Virus record (IMG/VR): IMGVR_UViG_2526164599_000006
Strand: one strand, 5' to 3'
DNA length: 51,662 bases
From: a virus
Taxonomy: Duplodnaviria > Heunggongvirae > Uroviricota > Caudoviricetes
The position numbers were made by a program, and so were the translations under genes. The notes beneath the pieces were generated by a model. It was not told where the DNA came from. It saw only the letters and a program-made list of their open reading frames with translations, and ran no database searches. Shown here in pieces: positions 4,468 through 50,367 of this stretch (positions are counted from its first letter, which is position 1; each line of letters opens with the position of its first letter).

Positions 4468-4892
4468 TGTTTTTGGTTTTAACTGTTCCGCGTGCGCTCA
4501 GCCGCATTCACCACATCACAAAATTCACTTTAAAAAGGGCGGCAGAGCAGTCACGGAGTAAAACTGATACCGCCAAACGTCACCAGAAAATTGATAACAG
4601 AGGGCGTTGCAGCGGGGTTGTCACTTAAGCGTATGGTCAACCTGACAACCCGGTGTCCTCAACGGGGGAAGGAATAACCCCGCCATACTTACCGCCGCGC
4701 CATTTCGCGGATTGCCACAACCGGAAGCGCACGGTCGACGAAAATTTAACGACAGGCTATCTATGAACCAGCTACCTCGCCGTGCGCTTTCGCGTTATGG
4801 TCTGACTTTTCAGGGAAATATCCTTTCAGTAAACTTGTCAACGCCAAGATTATTGGCCGTTTTTCGCCATTTTTAATGTCCGCTATTGGTCA

Positions 4893-8034: not shown

Positions 8035-8313
8035 TTAGGGAAACTGGCGTCTTGCGTGGATCACGTTTACTACTTCAACGCTTGATGTTGTTACGCGGTA
8101 TAGAATTATATAGTTAGGGTGGGCTACAATCTCACGCAAGCCAGGTACTCTGTCGCTTGGTGGGTATAAATACGGATGTTCGGATAACGGCAGCACACAA
8201 CCCCTTAATCGCTGCCATAAGCGTTCAGCCGCATCTATGTCGAAACGAGCAATATAACTAGTTATATCATCTAGGTCGGTATCTGCGCTTTCAAGCCATA
8301 ACACGGGTAACAT
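8035..8313 (-). CDS. parE2: ParE-family toxin (ParE2-like)
   Basis: 92-aa product from internal Met of the 124-aa ORF (MLPVLWLESADTDLDD...HPNYIILYRV...); start overlaps stop of upstream antitoxin with 1-nt spacing. Confidence 0.8.
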   Translation of the reverse strand: MLPVLWLESADTDLDDITSYIARFDIDAAERLWQRLRGCVLPLSEHPYLYPPSDRVPGLREIVAHPNYIILYRVTTSSVEVVNVIHARRQFP

Positions 8314-8314
8314 T

Positions 8315-8506
8315 TTACTGCTTGCTCCGTTCCTTACGCATCTTAGCAAAGCGTTCTGCCATTCTGCGCTCAACTTCGTCATGGGGAATTGCTGGGCGCG
8401 GATCTGCAAGGCTCGTTGCTACTTTCGCACGCAGCCATTCGTTGTAACTGTTTTCTTGTTCAATGGTTTCAAATTCAGAAACCATTGGTGAAAGGGCTCT
8501 ATTCAT
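8315..8506 (-). CDS. paaA2: PaaA2-like antitoxin
   Basis: 63-aa product (MNRALSPMVSEFETIEQENSYNEWLRAK...) immediately upstream of parE-like gene; matches remembered PaaA2 of the E. coli O157:H7 paaR2-paaA2-parE2 system. Confidence 0.7.
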   Translation of the reverse strand: MNRALSPMVSEFETIEQENSYNEWLRAKVATSLADPRPAIPHDEVERRMAERFAKMRKERSKQ

Positions 8507-10744: not shown

Positions 10745-11167
10745 GTGGCAAAAGTTTTTACACAAGAAGAGCGGGAAAAAATTAAAGGGCTGATCGTGGA
10801 ATTCGTACGCCTTAACGGACGAGGCACGATTCGGCAGTTATCGGATGAAATTGGTGTCAGTCATGCGTCTGTCGGTCGTTTATGCATGGAGCTGGCCGCC
10901 AGTGGTGATGTTTACAATTCCGGTTACGGAGTATTCCCGTCTGAGCAGGCGCGCAAGGACTGGCAAAACGCCCGCAAAAAACTCTCAAGGGCAAAGCTGA
11001 AGAAACCATCTGTGGTTGATCCGGACCTTATCTGGCTATTACCAGACGGCGAAATACGCCGCTACGACAGGCGTCAGAACATAATCTGTCGCGAGTGCCG
11101 GAAGAGCGAAGTTATGCAGCGCATATTGTCGTTTTATCAGGGTAATTTTCAGGAGGTAGCGCAGTGA
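10745..11167 (+). CDS. hypothetical protein with HTH-like segment
   Basis: 140-aa ORF, GTG start preceded by GGAGGG; RQLSDEIGVSHASVGRL resembles an HTH. Confidence 0.45.
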   Translation: MAKVFTQEEREKIKGLIVEFVRLNGRGTIRQLSDEIGVSHASVGRLCMELAASGDVYNSGYGVFPSEQARKDWQNARKKLSRAKLKKPSVVDPDLIWLLPDGEIRRYDRRQNIICRECRKSEVMQRILSFYQGNFQEVAQ

Positions 11168-11658
11168 GTGCACCGGCAACCATTCTTGATATGTGCTGTG
11201 GCAGCCGCATGTTCTGGTTCGATAAGAATGACGACCGGGCGATATTTAGCGATATCAGAAAGGAAGAGCACACATTATGTGATGGACGAAGACTGATAAT
11301 TAGCCCTGACCTGATAGCAGATTTTCGTGCATTACCATTTGCAGACGCATCGTTTCCGGTGGTTGTATTCGACCCTCCGCATCTTGAGCGTGTTGGTGAT
11401 AACGCCTGGATGGGAAAGAAATATGGACGGCTGAATAAAGATACCTGGCGTGATGATTTGCGGCAGGGATTTAAAGAAGCCTTTCGTGTGTTGCGGCCAT
11501 ACAGCGTTCTGATTTTTAAATGGAATGAAACGCAAATACCTGTTCGCCAGATATTGGCACTGACCGACAGAAAGCCTGTTATCGGTCAACGAACAGGAAA
11601 GGGTGACAAGACCCACTGGATTATTTTTATGAAGGAGGCGACCAGTGAGCAAGATTGA
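11164..11658 (+). CDS. small phage Dam-like DNA N6-adenine methyltransferase (putative)
   Basis: 164-aa ORF with glycine-rich motif (DMCCGSRMFWFD) and DPPH variant of the DPPY catalytic motif (VVVFDPPHLERV). Confidence 0.5.
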   Translation: MSAPATILDMCCGSRMFWFDKNDDRAIFSDIRKEEHTLCDGRRLIISPDLIADFRALPFADASFPVVVFDPPHLERVGDNAWMGKKYGRLNKDTWRDDLRQGFKEAFRVLRPYSVLIFKWNETQIPVRQILALTDRKPVIGQRTGKGDKTHWIIFMKEATSEQD

Positions 11659-11827
11659 CTATCAAGAACTGCGCGAGGCGGCGGAACAGGCAACGCAAGA
11701 TGAATGGGTAGCATATATTTTGCCGGGTCATAACGCATTTATCCTGCGCGCACGTCTGAGGGTAGGCATTGCGGATACTTTATTGACTGGCCTGGCGTCT
11801 GTCAGGGGCGGGAGAGCATCAACATGA
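11645..11827 (+). CDS. hypothetical small protein
   Basis: 60-aa ORF; N-terminus MSKIDYQELREAAEQA is paralogous to N-termini of ORFs at 12327 and 13752. Confidence 0.35.
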   Translation: MSKIDYQELREAAEQATQDEWVAYILPGHNAFILRARLRVGIADTLLTGLASVRGGRAST

Positions 11828-12330
11828 GCATCAGAACCTACGCAGTGAATTGCAATGACGCATGGCTAAACACCGAAGGTGATGACATCTCCGGCTCATA
11901 CGTTAAGTACAAAGACCATCAGGAAGTGGTTGCCGCTCTTGAGGCCAAGTGCGCGGCGCTGACAGCGGAGAATGCGGGAATAAAGTCTGCAATTCCAGAA
12001 TCACGGGATATTGAGGATGACAATGACAATATGGATGACGTATCTCTCGCGGAAGACTTCGGGTTCAATCATGCAATAGAACGGATGAGGAGACAGATAC
12101 CTGAAACGCCAACCACTGATGCTTTCCTGGCTGAAGTCCGGGCGCAGGGGGTGGATGCTGCTATAGAAGCTGCAAAAAATCTGGTGGCCCAAGAATATGA
12201 GTATAAGGATTTCAAAGCGGCGCAGAGTGATTGCTGTATGCACCCTGGTTCAGACCTGGTAGGGAAGGTTGAAATGACTGAGTGGTTAGTTGACTTTGCT
12301 GCCCAGCTTCGCAAAGGAGGCAACCAGTGA
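11824..12330 (+). CDS. hypothetical early-region protein
   Basis: 168-aa ORF translationally coupled to neighbours; no recognisable family. Confidence 0.45.
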   Translation: MSIRTYAVNCNDAWLNTEGDDISGSYVKYKDHQEVVAALEAKCAALTAENAGIKSAIPESRDIEDDNDNMDDVSLAEDFGFNHAIERMRRQIPETPTTDAFLAEVRAQGVDAAIEAAKNLVAQEYEYKDFKAAQSDCCMHPGSDLVGKVEMTEWLVDFAAQLRKGGNQ

Positions 12331-14895: not shown

Positions 14896-15186
14896 CCTGG
14901 CCTGAAGCATTAACAACGGTAGGAATTGCGATGGCGGTGGCGCTGGTGGTGTATTCGATTTGCCGCTGGGGATAAAAACGGTTTGCGGTAAAGCGAGAGT
15001 TAAGTAGAATTGCTGCGGGTGCTTGAGGCTATCTGCCTCAGGCATGAACACCAAAAGGCAGATAGAGAAAAGCCCCAGTTAACATTACGCGTCCTGCAAG
15101 ACGCTTAACATTAATCTGAGGCCCAATCTATGTCTCACAAATGTAGGTTAGCCTCTTACGTGCCGAAAGGCAAGGAGAAGCAGGCT

Positions 15187-15342
15187 ATGAAGCAGCAAAA
15201 GGCGATGCTAATCGCCCTGATCGTCATCTGTTTAACCGTCATGGTGACGGCACTGGTAACGAGGAAAGACCTCTGCGAGGTACGAATCCGAACCGGCCAG
15301 ACGGAGGTCGCTGTCTTCACAGCTTACGAACCTGAGGAGTAA
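15187..15342 (+). CDS. hokD: Hok/Gef-family small membrane toxin (HokD/RelF-like)
   Basis: 51-aa product MKQQKAMLIALIVICLTVMVTALVTRKDLCEVRIRTGQTEVAVFTAYEPEE; RBS AAGGAG 8 nt upstream; in-frame upstream extension from ATG 15130. Confidence 0.8.
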   Translation: MKQQKAMLIALIVICLTVMVTALVTRKDLCEVRIRTGQTEVAVFTAYEPEE

Positions 15343-18617: not shown

Positions 18618-19667
18618 ATGCTTAATACTGTAAAAATATCCAGTTGTGAGTTAATCAACGCCGACTGCCTGGAATTTATCCGGTCGTTACCCGAAAATTC
18701 TGTTGACCTGATAGTCACGGACCCGCCGTACTTTAAAGTGAAGCCTGAGGGCTGGGATAACCAGTGGAAGGGCGACGATGATTACCTGAAGTGGCTGGAC
18801 CAGTGTCTGGCGCAGTTCTGGCGGGTGCTGAAACCTGCCGGAAGTCTTTACCTGTTCTGTGGTCATCGCCTGGCATCTGATATCGAAATCATGATGCGTG
18901 AACGCTTCAGTGTGCTGAACCATATTATCTGGGCGAAGCCGTCCGGACGCTGGAACGGATGCAACAAGGAAAGCCTGCGGGCGTATTTCCCCGCCACAGA
19001 GCGCATTCTGTTCGCGGAACATTATCAGGGGCCGTATCGTCCGAAAGATGCCGGGTATGCGGCGAAGGGCAGTGCACTGAAACAGCATGTGATGGCCCCG
19101 CTGATTTCTTACTTTCGTGATGCGCGCGTGGCCCTGGGGATAACGGCAAAACAGATTGCAGATGCCACAGGAAAGAAAAACATGGTGTCGCACTGGTTCA
19201 GTGCCAGTCAGTGGCAGCTACCGAACGAAAGCGATTATCTGAAATTACAGTCGCTGTTTGCCCGGGTGGCAGAAGAGAAACATCAGCGCGGTGAACTGGA
19301 AAAGCCCCACCACCAGCTGGTGGATACGTATACGTCACTGAACCGGCAGTATGTGGAGCTGCAGAGTGAATATAAGCATCTGCGGCGGTATTTTGGTGTG
19401 ACGGCGCAGGTGCCGTACACGGATGTGTGGACACATAAACCGGTGCAGTTCTATCCCGGGAAACATCCGTGCGAAAAACCGGCAGAAATGCTGCAGCAGA
19501 TAATCAGCGCAAGCAGTCGTCCGGGTGACCTGGTTGCAGATTTTTTTATGGGCTCAGGTTCAACGGTAAAAGCTGCACTGGCGCTCGGGCGTCGTGCGAT
19601 TGGCGTTGAACTGGAGACCGGACGTTTTGAGCAGACAGTCAGGGAAGTTCAGGATTTAATCGTTTGA
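18618..19667 (+). CDS. DNA N6-adenine methyltransferase (orphan, phage-encoded)
   Basis: 349-aa ORF with DPPY catalytic motif (LIVTDPPYF) near the N-terminus and SAM-binding motif (DFFMGSGST) near the C-terminus. Confidence 0.8.
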   Translation: MLNTVKISSCELINADCLEFIRSLPENSVDLIVTDPPYFKVKPEGWDNQWKGDDDYLKWLDQCLAQFWRVLKPAGSLYLFCGHRLASDIEIMMRERFSVLNHIIWAKPSGRWNGCNKESLRAYFPATERILFAEHYQGPYRPKDAGYAAKGSALKQHVMAPLISYFRDARVALGITAKQIADATGKKNMVSHWFSASQWQLPNESDYLKLQSLFARVAEEKHQRGELEKPHHQLVDTYTSLNRQYVELQSEYKHLRRYFGVTAQVPYTDVWTHKPVQFYPGKHPCEKPAEMLQQIISASSRPGDLVADFFMGSGSTVKAALALGRRAIGVELETGRFEQTVREVQDLIV

Positions 19668-19716: not shown

Positions 19717-19792
19717 GGCCCTTTAGCTCAGTGGTGAGAGCGAGCGACTCATAATCGCCAGGTCGCTGGTTCAAATCCAGCAAGGGCCACCA
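19717..19792 (+). tRNA. ileZ: tRNA with CAU anticodon, tRNA-Ile2 (lysidine)-like
   Basis: 76-nt cloverleaf GGCCCTT...AAGGGCCACCA; anticodon loop CTCATAA; close to remembered E. coli ileX. Confidence 0.8.
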
Positions 19793-19892: not shown

Positions 19893-19969
19893 GCGTTGTT
19901 AGCTCAGCCGGACAGAGCAATTGCCTTCTAAGCAATCGGTCACTGGTTCGAATCCAGTACAGCGCGCCA
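19893..19969 (+). tRNA. argO: tRNA-Arg (anticodon UCU)
   Basis: 77-nt cloverleaf GCGTTGT...ACAGCGCGCCA; anticodon loop CTTCTAA; TTCGAATCC T-loop. Confidence 0.8.
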
Positions 19970-20433: not shown

Positions 20434-20889
20434 ATACATATCTGGATTATCACCGGTTACGGTAAAAAGTGATTGCTTACTGTTTTTGTGAATGGCATTG
20501 CAGCAGCCGGATAATGTCAGTGCTGGCTGACGGTGTGCTGGTGGCGGGTGTGGTGGTTGCTGCTTTCCCGTTGCTGAAAAAGAAAACGCCAGACTGTTAG
20601 CCGGGTATCAGTTAGCGGGAGAAATTTTTAAATACTTCACAATTCAGGCGGTTGACTGTTGTCTGGTTTGCGGGGAGTTTGTTAAAAGAAACTGGCATGG
20701 TGAATCCCCCTGTGCGGAGGGGCAATCAGCGAGTAGGTATATGGGATAATCGCGGATTCAGGTGCTGGTACTGAATTCACCGGGAGGCACCCGGCACCAT
20801 GCAATGGCACATAGCGCCACTCTCCAGCCCCTCTCCGGAGGGGCTGTTTATATTGATTTTGTCAGATGTGAGTAAACTCCTTATGGACT

Positions 20890-49060: not shown

Positions 49061-49644
49061 TGGCATTCAGAATGAGTGAACAAGCACGGACCATAAAAAT
49101 TTATAATCTGCTGGCCGGAACTAATGAATTTATTGGTGAAGGTGACGCATATATTCCGCCTCATACAGGTCTGCCAGCAAACAGTACCGATATTGCACCA
49201 CCAGATATTCCTGCTGGCTTTGTGGCTGTTTTCAACAGTGATGAGGCATCGTGGCATCTCGTTGAAGACCATCGGGGAAAAACGGTTTATGACGTAGCGT
49301 CAGGGGACGAGTTATTTATTTCTGAACTCGGTCCGTTACCGGAAAATGTTACCTGGTTATCGCCGGAAGGGGAGTTTCAGAAGTGGAACGGCACAGCCTG
49401 GGTGAAGGATACGGAAGCAGAAAAAATGTTCCGGATCCGGGAGGCGGAAGAAACAAAAAACAACCTGATGCAGGTAGCCAGTGAGCATATTGCGCCGCTT
49501 CAGGATGCTGCAGATCTGGAAATTGCAACGGAGGAAGAAACCTCATTGCTGGAAGCCTGGAAAAAGTATCGGGTGTTGCTGAACCGTGTTGATACATCAA
49601 CTGCACCTGATATTGAGTGGCCTACGAACCCTGTCAGGGAGTAA
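49060..49644 (+). CDS. tfa: tail fibre assembly protein Tfa
   Basis: 194-aa ORF overlapping stf stop; Tfa-like N- and C-termini. Confidence 0.85.
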
Positions 49645-49698: not shown

Positions 49699-50367
49699 CT
49701 ATTTTTTCCCTGAAGCGGAAAACATTACTACAGTACCTTGAACCTTGGTTTTAACATTCTCGAAATGCTCTGAGAGTATATGTGTTAAGCCTTCTTCGGA
49801 ATCTTTTGTGTTTGAAAAGATGCCTTTCTGATTGTAAATGCGCATCAGTTTTTGACCGAAGCTATTGTGCACAACTCCATCGCCAAGAATTGTGGCTCCG
49901 TATAGAGTTCCATCGTCAGTTAAGGCCTGCGCCGCATTGCGTATTACACAGCTTTTTGTAGATATATTTCCAGGCAGGCAGTGAAGAAGGTAAAACATGG
50001 AAATGGAATCAAATTGACCATGTAACGCCGCGGGATAAGGTTCAAAAACATCATGGCTAATTTTATGTTTAATTTTTGATTCCCCAGCCCTTGTAGATGC
50101 CGCGTTCAGGCTAGCTTCGTTCAAATCCATTAAAGATATCAGACTACTCTCAGGTACGTGAGTAAGGTAAAACCCAGTTCCAACACCAATATCCAGATGG
50201 TTGTTACCTACATGTTCCAGAAAGTGTGGAAGAAGGTGTTCCTTTGTAGGACATCCCCATGCAAGCCGATTTGATACTCCCAAAACCCACCAGTCATAAA
50301 GCTTTAGGGTAAGTGGTGTGTAAATTTTAGCCCCATCATCTGTGTTTTTTTTCATTGATTTCACCAT
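49699..50367 (-). CDS. class I SAM-dependent methyltransferase (substrate unknown)
   Basis: 222-aa ORF with motif I LDIGVGTG; AT-rich DNA; opposite strand to late operon. Confidence 0.55.
   Translation of the reverse strand: MVKSMKKNTDDGAKIYTPLTLKLYDWWVLGVSNRLAWGCPTKEHLLPHFLEHVGNNHLDIGVGTGFYLTHVPESSLISLMDLNEASLNAASTRAGESKIKHKISHDVFEPYPAALHGQFDSISMFYLLHCLPGNISTKSCVIRNAAQALTDDGTLYGATILGDGVVHNSFGQKLMRIYNQKGIFSNTKDSEEGLTHILSEHFENVKTKVQGTVVMFSASGKK

What the first reader, a model, noticed from the sequence alone, without database searches (positions are those of the whole stretch)
11164..11658. Additional small Dam-like methyltransferase in the early region (three methyltransferases in one prophage)
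A 164-aa ORF with a DPPH catalytic-type motif lies in the early rightward operon, in addition to the 349-aa late-region MTase and the 222-aa tfa-proximal MTase. Multiple orphan MTases suggest anti-restriction or epigenetic roles.
Basis: partly seen in the sequence, partly recalled or inferred. Interest (0 to 1): 0.35.

Follow-up and report, generated by a model that had tools for sequence, protein, structure and literature searches.

The report
Small prophage methyltransferase, not Dam-like
A real 164-codon gene in the early operon of an E. coli lambdoid prophage encodes a minimal SAM-dependent methyltransferase from a widespread phage family that is already annotated but has no tested activity; it is not a Dam relative, and the finding is ordinary.

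Summary
The ORF is real: 11164-11658 (+), 164 aa, GTG start, AGGAGG ribosome-binding site, translationally coupled to both neighbours, with DPPH at residues 70-73. It is an intact class I SAM-dependent methyltransferase. The SAM-binding residues (D9/G13, D30, D53) and DPPH are conserved or invariant in 87 homologues, and the AlphaFold model is confident (pLDDT 94).

It is not Dam-like. It does not match the Dam Pfam families, no Dam structure appears in the top 50 Foldseek hits, and motif I lies only 60 residues before motif IV, leaving no room for a target-recognition domain.

It belongs to a stand-alone family of about 155 aa (phrog_954; PADLOC MTase_II/oMTase; RefSeq "class I SAM-dependent methyltransferase"). 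This family sits in the early/replication modules of temperate phages across bacterial phyla. It also turned up on one Microviridae-like contig and in one conjugative element.

The most likely function is orphan methylation of amino groups on DNA bases (N6-adenine or N4-cytosine), made early after induction. No member was found to have been characterised.

"Three methyltransferases" is only partly right. The 349-aa gene is an M.EcoGI/II-type DNA methyltransferase. The 222-aa gene is a generic class I methyltransferase without an amino-methyltransferase motif. This copy also has Ser at a position where 97% of the family has Gly (residue 114).

The parts
11164..11658 (+). ORF of 164 aa (GTG start, TGA stop): minimal class I SAM-dependent methyltransferase, phrog_954 / PADLOC MTase_II family
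   Evidence: exact protein on 344 public contigs, named class I SAM-dependent methyltransferase
11151..11156 (+). AGGAGG ribosome-binding site 7 nt upstream of the GTG; the start overlaps the stop of the upstream DUF977 ORF (GTGA at 11164-11167)
   Evidence: read directly from the sequence
11182..11205 (+). Motif I, residues 7-14 ILDMCCGS (strand 1 plus the cofactor loop); L8, D9, C12 and G13 are at least 92% conserved
11251..11253 (+). D30, invariant acidic residue at the end of strand 2 (motif II position, which binds the SAM ribose in class I methyltransferases)
   Evidence: the role is inferred from general knowledge of the fold
11305..11325 (+). Residues 48-54 PDLIADF: invariant P48, then D49, D53 and F54 (motif III region; aligns with the 'gDa..LPF' segment of Methyltransf_11 and with residues 13-20 of the beta-class enzyme)
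11371..11382 (+). Motif IV, DPPH (residues 70-73), invariant in the family, directly after strand 64-69
11476..11523 (+). Residues 105-120 EAFRVLRPYSVLIFKW (motif V/VI-like 'RVLkpgG' helix end plus strand 5); E105, R108, V109, L110, K119 and W120 are at least 99% conserved
11503..11505 (+). Codon AGC = Ser114, where 97% of the family (84 of 87) and 109 of 111 close relatives have Gly. This is the only strongly conserved position at which this copy deviates
   Evidence: the O104:H4 copy has Arg here plus K119N
10745..11167 (+). Upstream, translationally coupled DUF977 / Ren-like gene (context only; not conserved next to the methyltransferase in other phyla)
18618..19667 (+). Second methyltransferase of the prophage: 349-aa beta-class N6_N4 DNA methyltransferase with N-terminal DPPY, M.EcoGI/II type, downstream of the Q antiterminator
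   Evidence: PMC5778455
49699..50367 (-). Third methyltransferase-fold gene: 222-aa generic class I enzyme (Methyltransf_12/23/25), no amino-methyltransferase motif, phrog_2132 of unknown function

Best explanation
The gene encodes a stand-alone amino-group methyltransferase of about 155 aa with no target-recognition domain.

Shown:
- The ORF is intact and translationally coupled to its neighbours in the early (Cro - YdaT - O-like - DUF977) operon.
- The predicted fold is a class I SAM-dependent methyltransferase.
- The cofactor-binding residues are conserved, and DPPH sits at the catalytic position.
- The family is confined to mobile elements. It usually lies directly after replication genes and sometimes next to other DNA methyltransferases.

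Inferred:
- On prophage induction it is made early, together with the replication proteins.
- It uses SAM to methylate an exocyclic amino group of a DNA base (adenine N6 or cytosine N4) on replicating phage DNA.
- This would protect progeny DNA against restriction-type defences in the next host.
- In the lysogen it should be silent, because the operon is repressor-controlled.
- Its sequence specificity is unknown. With no recognition domain, it is either very short or absent.
For: - ORF, ribosome-binding site and coupling.
- Operon context.
- Full-length matches to phrog_954 'DNA methyltransferase' (2.7e-87) and to PADLOC MTase_II PDLC03288 (2.6e-73) and oMTase PDLC03730 (3.8e-49).
- Conservation: D30, P48, D70, P71, P72, H73 and R108 are invariant; D9 and G13 are 98-99% and D53 94% conserved.
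- Structure: AF2 pLDDT 94.2, pTM 0.88. Foldseek returns only SAM-dependent methyltransferases, including the amino-methyltransferases Trm11, M.TaqI and HemK.
- hhalign of the family profile against the prophage's own beta-class DNA methyltransferase: 92% probability, E 6e-7, over residues 46-118 versus 13-79, covering DPPH/DPPY and the RVLKP segment. 14 of 88 relatives give weak PF01555 hits.
- Distribution: 254 phage genomes across Proteobacteria, Firmicutes, Actinobacteria, Bacteroidota, Fusobacteria and a haloarchaeal virus, and at least 590 matching stretches in the one-genome-per-species set.
- Position: directly after the DnaD-like loader in Listeria A006, after primase genes and one hypothetical gene in Porphyromonas phages, and downstream of the replication protein in pneumophage IPP22. 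It lies beside a large DNA methyltransferase in Gordonia and Porphyromonas phages and beside a C5 methylase. One member is in a conjugative element next to SSB and topoisomerase, and one is on a 5.9-kb contig with a Microviridae capsid gene.
- The core is mildly basic (median pI 8.6).
Against: - No member was found to have been tested biochemically, so 'DNA' rests on context and on database names.
- The best Pfam and PDB sequence matches are generic (Methyltransf_11/25 below threshold; PH0226). The nearest amino-methyltransferase by profile is the tRNA enzyme Trm11, not a DNA enzyme.
- There is no recognisable DNA-binding or target-recognition domain.
- None of 116 neighbouring genes is a recognisable restriction endonuclease, which would have tied the family to DNA.
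- This copy has Ser instead of the 97%-conserved Gly114.
Confidence: 0.55

Rival explanations
1. It is an RNA methyltransferase of the Trm11/RsmD type (m2G or m6A on tRNA or rRNA) that a phage uses to alter host translation or to mark its own transcripts.
For: - The family profile hits archaeal Trm11 at E 0.035 over the DPPH region, and the RsmD-like HI0767 at E 0.64.
- Foldseek TM-scores (normalised by query length) to Trm11 (0.56-0.58) and Bud23 (0.50-0.54) are at least as good as to M.TaqI (0.48-0.50).
- RefSeq names one homologue 'TRM11 family methyltransferase'.
- About 50% identity between E. coli and Streptococcus phage copies would suit a universally conserved substrate.
Against: - There is no THUMP or other RNA-binding domain. 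Extensions in homologues are unconserved and there are no informative fusions.
- The family is found only in mobile elements, beside replication genes and DNA methyltransferases.
- PHROG and PADLOC class it with DNA methyltransferases.
- hhalign links it at 92% probability to a beta-class DNA methyltransferase.
Confidence: 0.15
2. It methylates something other than a nucleic acid, such as a small molecule or a protein side chain, like most Methyltransf_11/25-type enzymes.
For: The only Pfam matches are Methyltransf_11/25, below threshold for this copy and matched by 74 and 54 of 88 relatives. The top PDB hits are PH0226, a phosphatidylethanolamine N-methyltransferase, and other generic or small-molecule enzymes.
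Against: An invariant DPPH placed exactly at motif IV is the hallmark of enzymes that methylate amino groups of bases, or glutamine (general knowledge of the family; invariance). There is local profile similarity to N6_N4 DNA methyltransferases. The gene sits in replication modules of phages from many phyla, with no metabolic partner genes.
Confidence: 0.08
3. The family is a DNA methyltransferase, but this particular allele is weakened or inactive: a decaying gene in a resident prophage.
For: Ser114 replaces a Gly that is present in 84 of 87 family members and in 109 of 111 close relatives, in the turn before strand 5. The otherwise 99%-identical O104:H4 copy has Arg114 and also K119N at a 99%-conserved Lys. 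This suggests relaxed constraint in this E. coli sub-lineage. The neighbouring Ead/Ea22 gene is split into two ORFs.
Against: The ORF is full length, and every cofactor and catalytic residue is retained. The exact allele is on 344 contigs. The AF2 model is confident throughout, although AF2 is not sensitive to single substitutions. Gly to Ser is a mild change.
Confidence: 0.15
4. One reading: a Dam-like (GATC) adenine methyltransferase.
For: A DPPH/DPPY-type motif is present. Very small phage Dam enzymes do exist: S. aureus prophage PamA is 141 aa, has NPPY at residues 64-67, and makes DNA DpnI-sensitive (PMC12435837).
Against: No hit to PF02086 or PF05869 at E<=1. No Dam structure in the top 50 Foldseek hits. 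The motif order and spacing are incompatible with the alpha class. The host already has Dam, so GATC methylation would add little for an E. coli phage (inference).
Confidence: 0.05

Closest known systems
phrog_954 'DNA methyltransferase'; PADLOC PDLC03288 (MTase_II) and PDLC03730 (oMTase); RefSeq 'class I SAM-dependent methyltransferase' (e.g. WP_001275732.1 in E. coli Ecol_316)
   Same: Full-length, high-scoring membership (2.7e-87, 2.6e-73, 3.8e-49). The exact protein is already in public databases on 344 contigs. The gene and its context are the same in 899 of 5426 complete E. coli genomes.
   Different: Nothing differs except Ser114 in place of the family's Gly. These names are classifications; no activity test was found for any member.
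M.EcoGI / M.EcoGII (beta-class, non-specific adenine DNA methyltransferase of E. coli prophages; PMC5778455)
   Same: Encoded in the same type of prophage; the window's 349-aa ORF is 98% identical to the O104:H4 enzyme. Both are orphans. Motifs III-IV-VI of the small protein align with the N-terminal 80 residues of this enzyme (hhalign 92%).
   Different: The small protein is half the size and has no central target-recognition domain. Its SAM-binding motif I lies N-terminal to DPPH (I then IV) rather than C-terminal (IV ... I). It fails the PF01555 model and sits in the early operon rather than downstream of Q.
PamA and other small phage Dam enzymes (PMC12435837)
   Same: Very small (141 aa versus 164 aa), prophage-borne orphans, with the xPPx motif near residue 65-70.
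   Different: PamA is described as a Dam homologue with NPPY and confers GATC methylation. The window protein does not match either Dam Pfam family. I could not align the two directly because no PamA sequence was at hand.
Trm11 / RsmD-type RNA m2G methyltransferases
   Same: Same motif order (I then IV: DPPY or DPPF). Closest amino-methyltransferases by profile and by fold.
   Different: Only marginal scores (E 0.035 and 0.64; TM 0.56-0.58). No THUMP domain. Found in mobile elements rather than as a housekeeping gene.
M.EcoGIX / M.BceJIII, replication-associated single-strand-specific plasmid methyltransferases (PMC7736820)
   Same: Functional analogy only: orphan methyltransferases of mobile elements with little sequence specificity, acting on DNA exposed during replication or transfer. 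One relative of the small enzyme sits next to SSB and topoisomerase in a conjugative element, and one is on a Microviridae-like contig.
   Different: Those enzymes are beta-class with DPPY. Single-strand specificity of the small family is pure speculation.

Membership tests
Dam / alpha-class N6-adenine DNA methyltransferases (Pfam PF02086 MethyltransfD12) | Sequence match to the family model | tested here: not met
   hmmscan against Pfam at E<=1 lists only Methyltransf_11 and Methyltransf_25; none of 88 relatives matches it
Dam / alpha-class N6-adenine DNA methyltransferases (Pfam PF02086 MethyltransfD12) | Motif I, then a target-recognition domain of more than 100 aa, then DPPY near the C-terminus | tested here: not met
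   Motif I is at residues 7-14 and DPPH at 70-73, with only a beta hairpin between them
Dam / alpha-class N6-adenine DNA methyltransferases (Pfam PF02086 MethyltransfD12) | Methylation of GATC | not testable with these tools
   Needs DpnI/MboI digestion or SMRT sequencing after expression in a dam-minus host
Small phage Dam family (Pfam PF05869, T1 / PamA type) | Sequence match to the family model | tested here: not met
   No hit at E<=1
Class I (Rossmann-like) SAM-dependent methyltransferase fold | Predicted central beta sheet with the class I topology, and structural neighbours that are SAM-dependent methyltransferases | tested here: met
   AF2 pLDDT 94.2. 136 PDB matches at E<=0.001, and the top 50 are all SAM-dependent methyltransferases or relatives, with TM 0.41-0.58. 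The modest TM values reflect missing helices between strands 1-2 and 2-4
Class I (Rossmann-like) SAM-dependent methyltransferase fold | Motif I acidic residue plus Gly loop after strand 1, and an acidic residue at the end of strand 2 | tested here: met
   D9 99%, G13 98%, D30 100% conserved
Amino-methyltransferases of nucleic-acid bases ((D/N/S)PP(Y/F/W/H) motif IV) | The tetrapeptide directly after strand 4, conserved in the family | tested here: met
   DPPH at 70-73 after strand 64-69, invariant in 87 homologues
Amino-methyltransferases of nucleic-acid bases ((D/N/S)PP(Y/F/W/H) motif IV) | Transfer of a methyl group to adenine N6, cytosine N4 or guanine N2 | not testable with these tools
   Needs an enzymatic assay or methylome sequencing
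Beta-class N6_N4_Mtase (Pfam PF01555) | Match above the Pfam gathering score | tested here: not met
   No hit for the window protein; 14 of 88 relatives give only weak hits, best 3.1e-4
Beta-class N6_N4_Mtase (Pfam PF01555) | Motif order IV ... target-recognition domain ... I | tested here: not met
   Motif I precedes motif IV, and there is no recognition domain
Beta-class N6_N4_Mtase (Pfam PF01555) | Homology of the catalytic half | tested here: inconclusive
   hhalign 92% probability, E 6e-7, over 67 aligned columns against one sequence. This suggests common ancestry with circular permutation but does not prove it
phrog_954 / PADLOC MTase_II PDLC03288 | Full-length match to the family profile | tested here: met
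   Residues 5-162 versus profile 52-206 of 229, 2.7e-87; residues 6-160 versus 3-164 of 169, 2.6e-73
Trm11 / RsmD RNA m2G methyltransferases | Significant sequence match, and for Trm11 an N-terminal THUMP domain | tested here: not met
   E 0.035 and 0.64 only. The protein starts 6 residues before strand 1, so there is no room for THUMP. NCBIfam gives no hit above cut-off

The most novel reading that the evidence does not exclude
The family could be a so-far uncharacterised class of minimal (about 155 aa) DNA amino-methyltransferases with no recognition domain. It would be related by circular permutation to the beta class and would methylate with little or no sequence specificity, perhaps on single-stranded or replicating DNA. 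That could explain three things: it sits beside replication genes in temperate phages of many phyla; it fits on a Microviridae-like contig and in a conjugative element next to SSB; and it is about 50% identical between E. coli and Gram-positive phages.
Probability: 0.2. Interest if true: 0.5.

Novelty: already known. Interest (0 to 1): 0.2.

Why it matters
For this window it matters little. The gene is a common, already-annotated prophage gene, present in 899 of 5426 complete E. coli genomes, and the prophage's methyltransferase content is typical of Rac-like/lambdoid prophages that carry M.EcoGI/II-type enzymes.

The wider family is more useful. It is one of the smallest methyltransferase folds with an amino-methyltransferase motif, it is spread across mobile elements of most bacterial phyla, and no activity test was found for it. 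A single expression-plus-methylome experiment would assign a function to thousands of database entries. It would also show whether phages carry a second, very compact way to methylate DNA broadly, which could serve as a tool in the way M.EcoGII does.

Tried and rejected
- Single-sequence phmmer against PDB chains found nothing meaningful; the best hits were a metallo-beta-lactamase and a cutinase at E about 1.
- NCBIfam gave no family above cut-off.
- I looked for a conserved extra domain. N- and C-terminal extensions of homologues are unconserved, probably mis-called starts or read-through fusions with the next gene, such as Ea22 in P0005. Pfam on ten long homologues gave no informative fusion.
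- I looked for a linked restriction endonuclease or a conserved partner. Pfam on 116 same-strand neighbours from 59 loci showed only prophage early genes: integrases, DUF1376, C5 methylases, PAPS reductase, RusA, lambda P, RdgC, NinX and so on. Six further context look-ups gave phage early regions, one conjugative element and one Microviridae-like contig.
- Literature searches for a characterised member found none.
- The PADLOC papers did not say whether the sequences behind the MTase_II/oMTase models were experimentally characterised.
- The ST131 methylome paper lists prophage methyltransferases but not this one.
- I first suspected the 349-aa ORF might be the DUF968 protein, which has nearly the same size in related prophages. 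Rejected: it is PF01555 at 1.8e-44.
- The 106-aa antisense ORF 11332-11652 has nothing to support it and was ignored.

Full report
**Observation**

- An AGGAGG box lies 7 nt upstream of the GTG.
- The GTG overlaps the TGA stop of the upstream DUF977 gene (GTGA).
- The 3' end overlaps by 14 nt the GTG start of the next gene, which is Ead/Ea22-like.
- DPPH is at residues 70-73 (nt 11371-11382).
- The gene is fifth in a + strand series: Cro/YdaS-like, YdaT, O-like replication initiator, DUF977, methyltransferase, then Ead/Ea22 genes.
- No terminator signal above the shuffled background separates these genes, and a promoter-like site lies just upstream of the Cro-like gene.

The window is a Rac-like/lambdoid E. 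coli prophage. In strain Ecol_316 a near-identical element (this gene 99.8% identical) lies between ompW and later phage genes, with the same gene order.

**What the protein is**

Pfam gives only sub-threshold Methyltransf_11/25 hits, and NCBIfam gives nothing above cut-off. Three family profiles match over the full length:
- phrog_954 'DNA methyltransferase', 2.7e-87
- PADLOC MTase_II PDLC03288, 2.6e-73
- PADLOC oMTase PDLC03730, 3.8e-49

RefSeq calls it 'class I SAM-dependent methyltransferase', and once 'TRM11 family methyltransferase'. The exact protein is on 344 public contigs. The gene is in 899 of 5426 complete E. coli genomes.

The family is large: 7828 clusters at 90% identity and 2020 representatives at 50% identity.

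An alignment of 88 members, 40-94% identical to the query, gives this conservation:
- Invariant: D30, P48, D70, P71, P72, H73 and R108.
- At least 94% conserved: D9, C12, G13, R32, D49, D53, Y87, W95, E105, K119 and W120.

These map onto the standard class I motifs:
- Motif I: ILDMCCGS, after strand 1.
- Motif II: the acidic residue D30, at the end of strand 2.
- Motif III: D53 in 'DFRALPF'.
- Motif IV: DPPH, after strand 4.
- Motif V/VI: the 'E..RVL.P.G.L' helix and strand.

It is therefore not met.

**Structure**

The AlphaFold2 model built on that alignment is confident (pLDDT 94.2, pTM 0.88). It shows a stripped-down fold. There is no helix between strands 1 and 2, and a beta hairpin (34-46) sits where class I enzymes usually have helices.
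- Foldseek against the PDB returns only SAM-dependent methyltransferases and relatives, at modest TM (0.41-0.58). These include PH0226, a phosphatidylethanolamine N-methyltransferase, Bud23, nucleomethylin, Trm11, M.TaqI and HemK. No Dam structure is in the top 50.
- In the viral structure library, the only close match is an unnamed homologue (TM 0.90, 50% identity).
- A profile search of PDB sequences gives PH0226 (3e-5), then Trm11 (0.035) and an RsmD-like protein (0.64).

**Not Dam-like**

- No Dam Pfam family (PF02086 or PF05869) appears among the hits at E<=1.
- Motif I lies 60 residues before motif IV with no intervening recognition domain, which is the opposite of the alpha-class layout.
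- The core of about 155 aa is the whole protein. Extensions in homologues are unconserved, and long homologues carry no informative extra domain.

A profile comparison with the prophage's own 349-aa enzyme does align residues 46-118 with residues 13-79 of that beta-class methyltransferase (92% probability, E 6e-7). In addition, 14 of 88 relatives weakly touch PF01555. The catalytic half therefore resembles N6/N4 DNA amino-methyltransferases, but with the SAM-binding motif on the other side. That is compatible with a circularly permuted relative, not with membership.

**Distribution and context**

tblastn finds the gene in 254 phage genomes. Hosts include Streptococcus, Vibrio, Acinetobacter, Porphyromonas, Listeria, Gordonia, Enterococcus, Lactobacillus, Staphylococcus, Bacteroides, Fusobacterium and Corynebacterium, plus a Halorubrum virus. 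Identity is typically 47-65%. A genome scan found at least 590 matching stretches in a one-genome-per-species set, spanning Proteobacteria, Actinobacteria, Firmicutes and Verrucomicrobia.

Wherever annotation exists, the gene sits in the early/replication module:
- directly after the DnaD-like loader in Listeria A006
- downstream of the replication protein in pneumophage IPP22
- beside a large DNA methyltransferase in Gordonia Nymphadora
- after primase genes and one hypothetical gene, and before a large methyltransferase, in Porphyromonas phages

Pfam on 116 neighbouring genes from 59 loci shows only prophage early functions and no restriction endonuclease. Further look-ups found members in four other settings:
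- next to a C5 DNA methylase
- in a conjugative element between SSB/topoisomerase/SLT/SNase genes
- on a 5.9-kb contig with a Microviridae major capsid gene
- in other phage early regions

The family is therefore an orphan gene of mobile elements, not half of a restriction-modification pair.

**Mechanism**

- Shown: an intact, translationally coupled early gene; a SAM-dependent fold with the amino-methyltransferase tetrapeptide; an exclusive association with mobile-element replication regions.
- Inferred: after induction it is co-expressed with the replication proteins and methylates adenine N6 or cytosine N4 in replicating phage DNA. This would protect progeny from restriction in the next host.
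- Confidence: about 0.55.
- Rivals: an RNA m2G/m6A enzyme (0.15), a non-nucleic-acid substrate (0.08), and, on a separate axis, an impaired allele (0.15).

The impaired-allele rival rests on Ser114. Gly occupies this position in 84 of 87 family members and in 109 of 111 close relatives. The O104:H4 copy, 99% identical, has Arg114 plus K119N.

No paper that tests a member of the family was found. The small S. aureus prophage enzyme PamA (141 aa, NPPY, GATC) is described as a Dam homologue. The window protein matches neither Dam Pfam family, and I could not compare the two sequences directly.

**The 'three methyltransferases' claim**

- The 349-aa ORF (18618-19667) is a genuine beta-class DNA methyltransferase (PF01555, 1.8e-44). 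It lies downstream of the Q antiterminator and upstream of two tRNA genes. It is 98% identical to the corresponding enzyme of an O104:H4 prophage. That places it in the M.EcoGI/M.EcoGII group, which is 349 aa, non-specific for adenine, and silent in lysogens (PMC5778455).
- The 222-aa ORF (49699-50367, - strand) is a generic Methyltransf_12/23/25 protein. It falls in a PHROG of unknown function, has no (D/N/S)PP(Y/F/W/H) motif, and shows no profile similarity to the small enzyme. It matches at least 80% of the query in 2608 of 5426 E. coli genomes.

So the prophage has one proven-type DNA methyltransferase, one probable one, and one methyltransferase-fold gene with no link to DNA.

**Verdict**

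The gene is already annotated and common, so interest for this window is low. The residual interest is that this very compact, widely spread family appears never to have been assayed.

Noticed in passing
L089 4001-4456 (ENA contig k147_2848839, 5949 nt): A 151-aa member of the same small methyltransferase family (43% identical, E 3.4e-37) lies on a 5.9-kb contig whose other genes include a Microviridae major capsid protein (PF02305 Phage_F). A single-stranded DNA phage therefore seems to carry this enzyme.
   Followed up: partly
L090 4001-4486 (Logan SRR7457774_4948): Another family member sits in a conjugative-element region between TrbL, topoisomerase (Toprim/Topoisom_bac), SSB, SLT and SNase genes. 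The family is therefore not restricted to phages.
   Followed up: no
window 11645-11827 and 11824-12330: The Ead/Ea22-like gene just downstream of the methyltransferase is split into a 60-aa ORF and a 168-aa ORF, matching profile positions 1-30 and 48-138. The same split is annotated in strain Ecol_316, whereas O104:H4 has a single 228-aa gene.
   Followed up: partly
window 11503-11505: Ser114 replaces a Gly that is 97% conserved in the family. The O104:H4 allele has Arg at the same codon plus K119N. Three different residues at one first-codon position (AGC here; Gly and Arg would be GGC and CGC by inference) hint at relaxed constraint in this E. coli lineage.
   Followed up: partly
window 19717-19792 and 19893-19969: tRNA-Met (CAT) and tRNA-Arg (TCT) genes lie directly downstream of the 349-aa M.EcoGI/II-type methyltransferase. 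Related prophages have tRNA-Ile/Arg at the same place.
   Followed up: no
window 4537-4588 (-), 15017-15192 (+), 20666-20855 (+), 49403-49601 (+): Rfam matches above gathering score: DicF antisense RNA, the sok antitoxin RNA of a hok/sok module, the sRNA STnc100, and IS009 RNA near the tail-fibre assembly gene.
   Followed up: no
window 8035-8409 (-): A ParE/RelE-family toxin gene (PF05016, 4.7e-16) lies beside the immunity region. The related O104:H4 prophage has a RelE/RelB pair at the same place.
   Followed up: no
window 11164-11658 (AF2 model mdf7964b1d45a): The predicted fold lacks the usual helices between strands 1-2 and 2-4 of class I methyltransferases; a loop and a beta hairpin (34-46) take their place. 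This explains the modest TM-scores (0.41-0.58) to all solved structures despite pLDDT 94.
   Followed up: no
window 49699-50367 (-): The 222-aa class I methyltransferase next to the tail-fibre assembly gene is one of the commonest prophage cargo genes in E. coli (at least 80% of the query matched in 2608 of 5426 genomes). It belongs to a PHROG of unknown function, and its substrate is unknown.
   Followed up: partly
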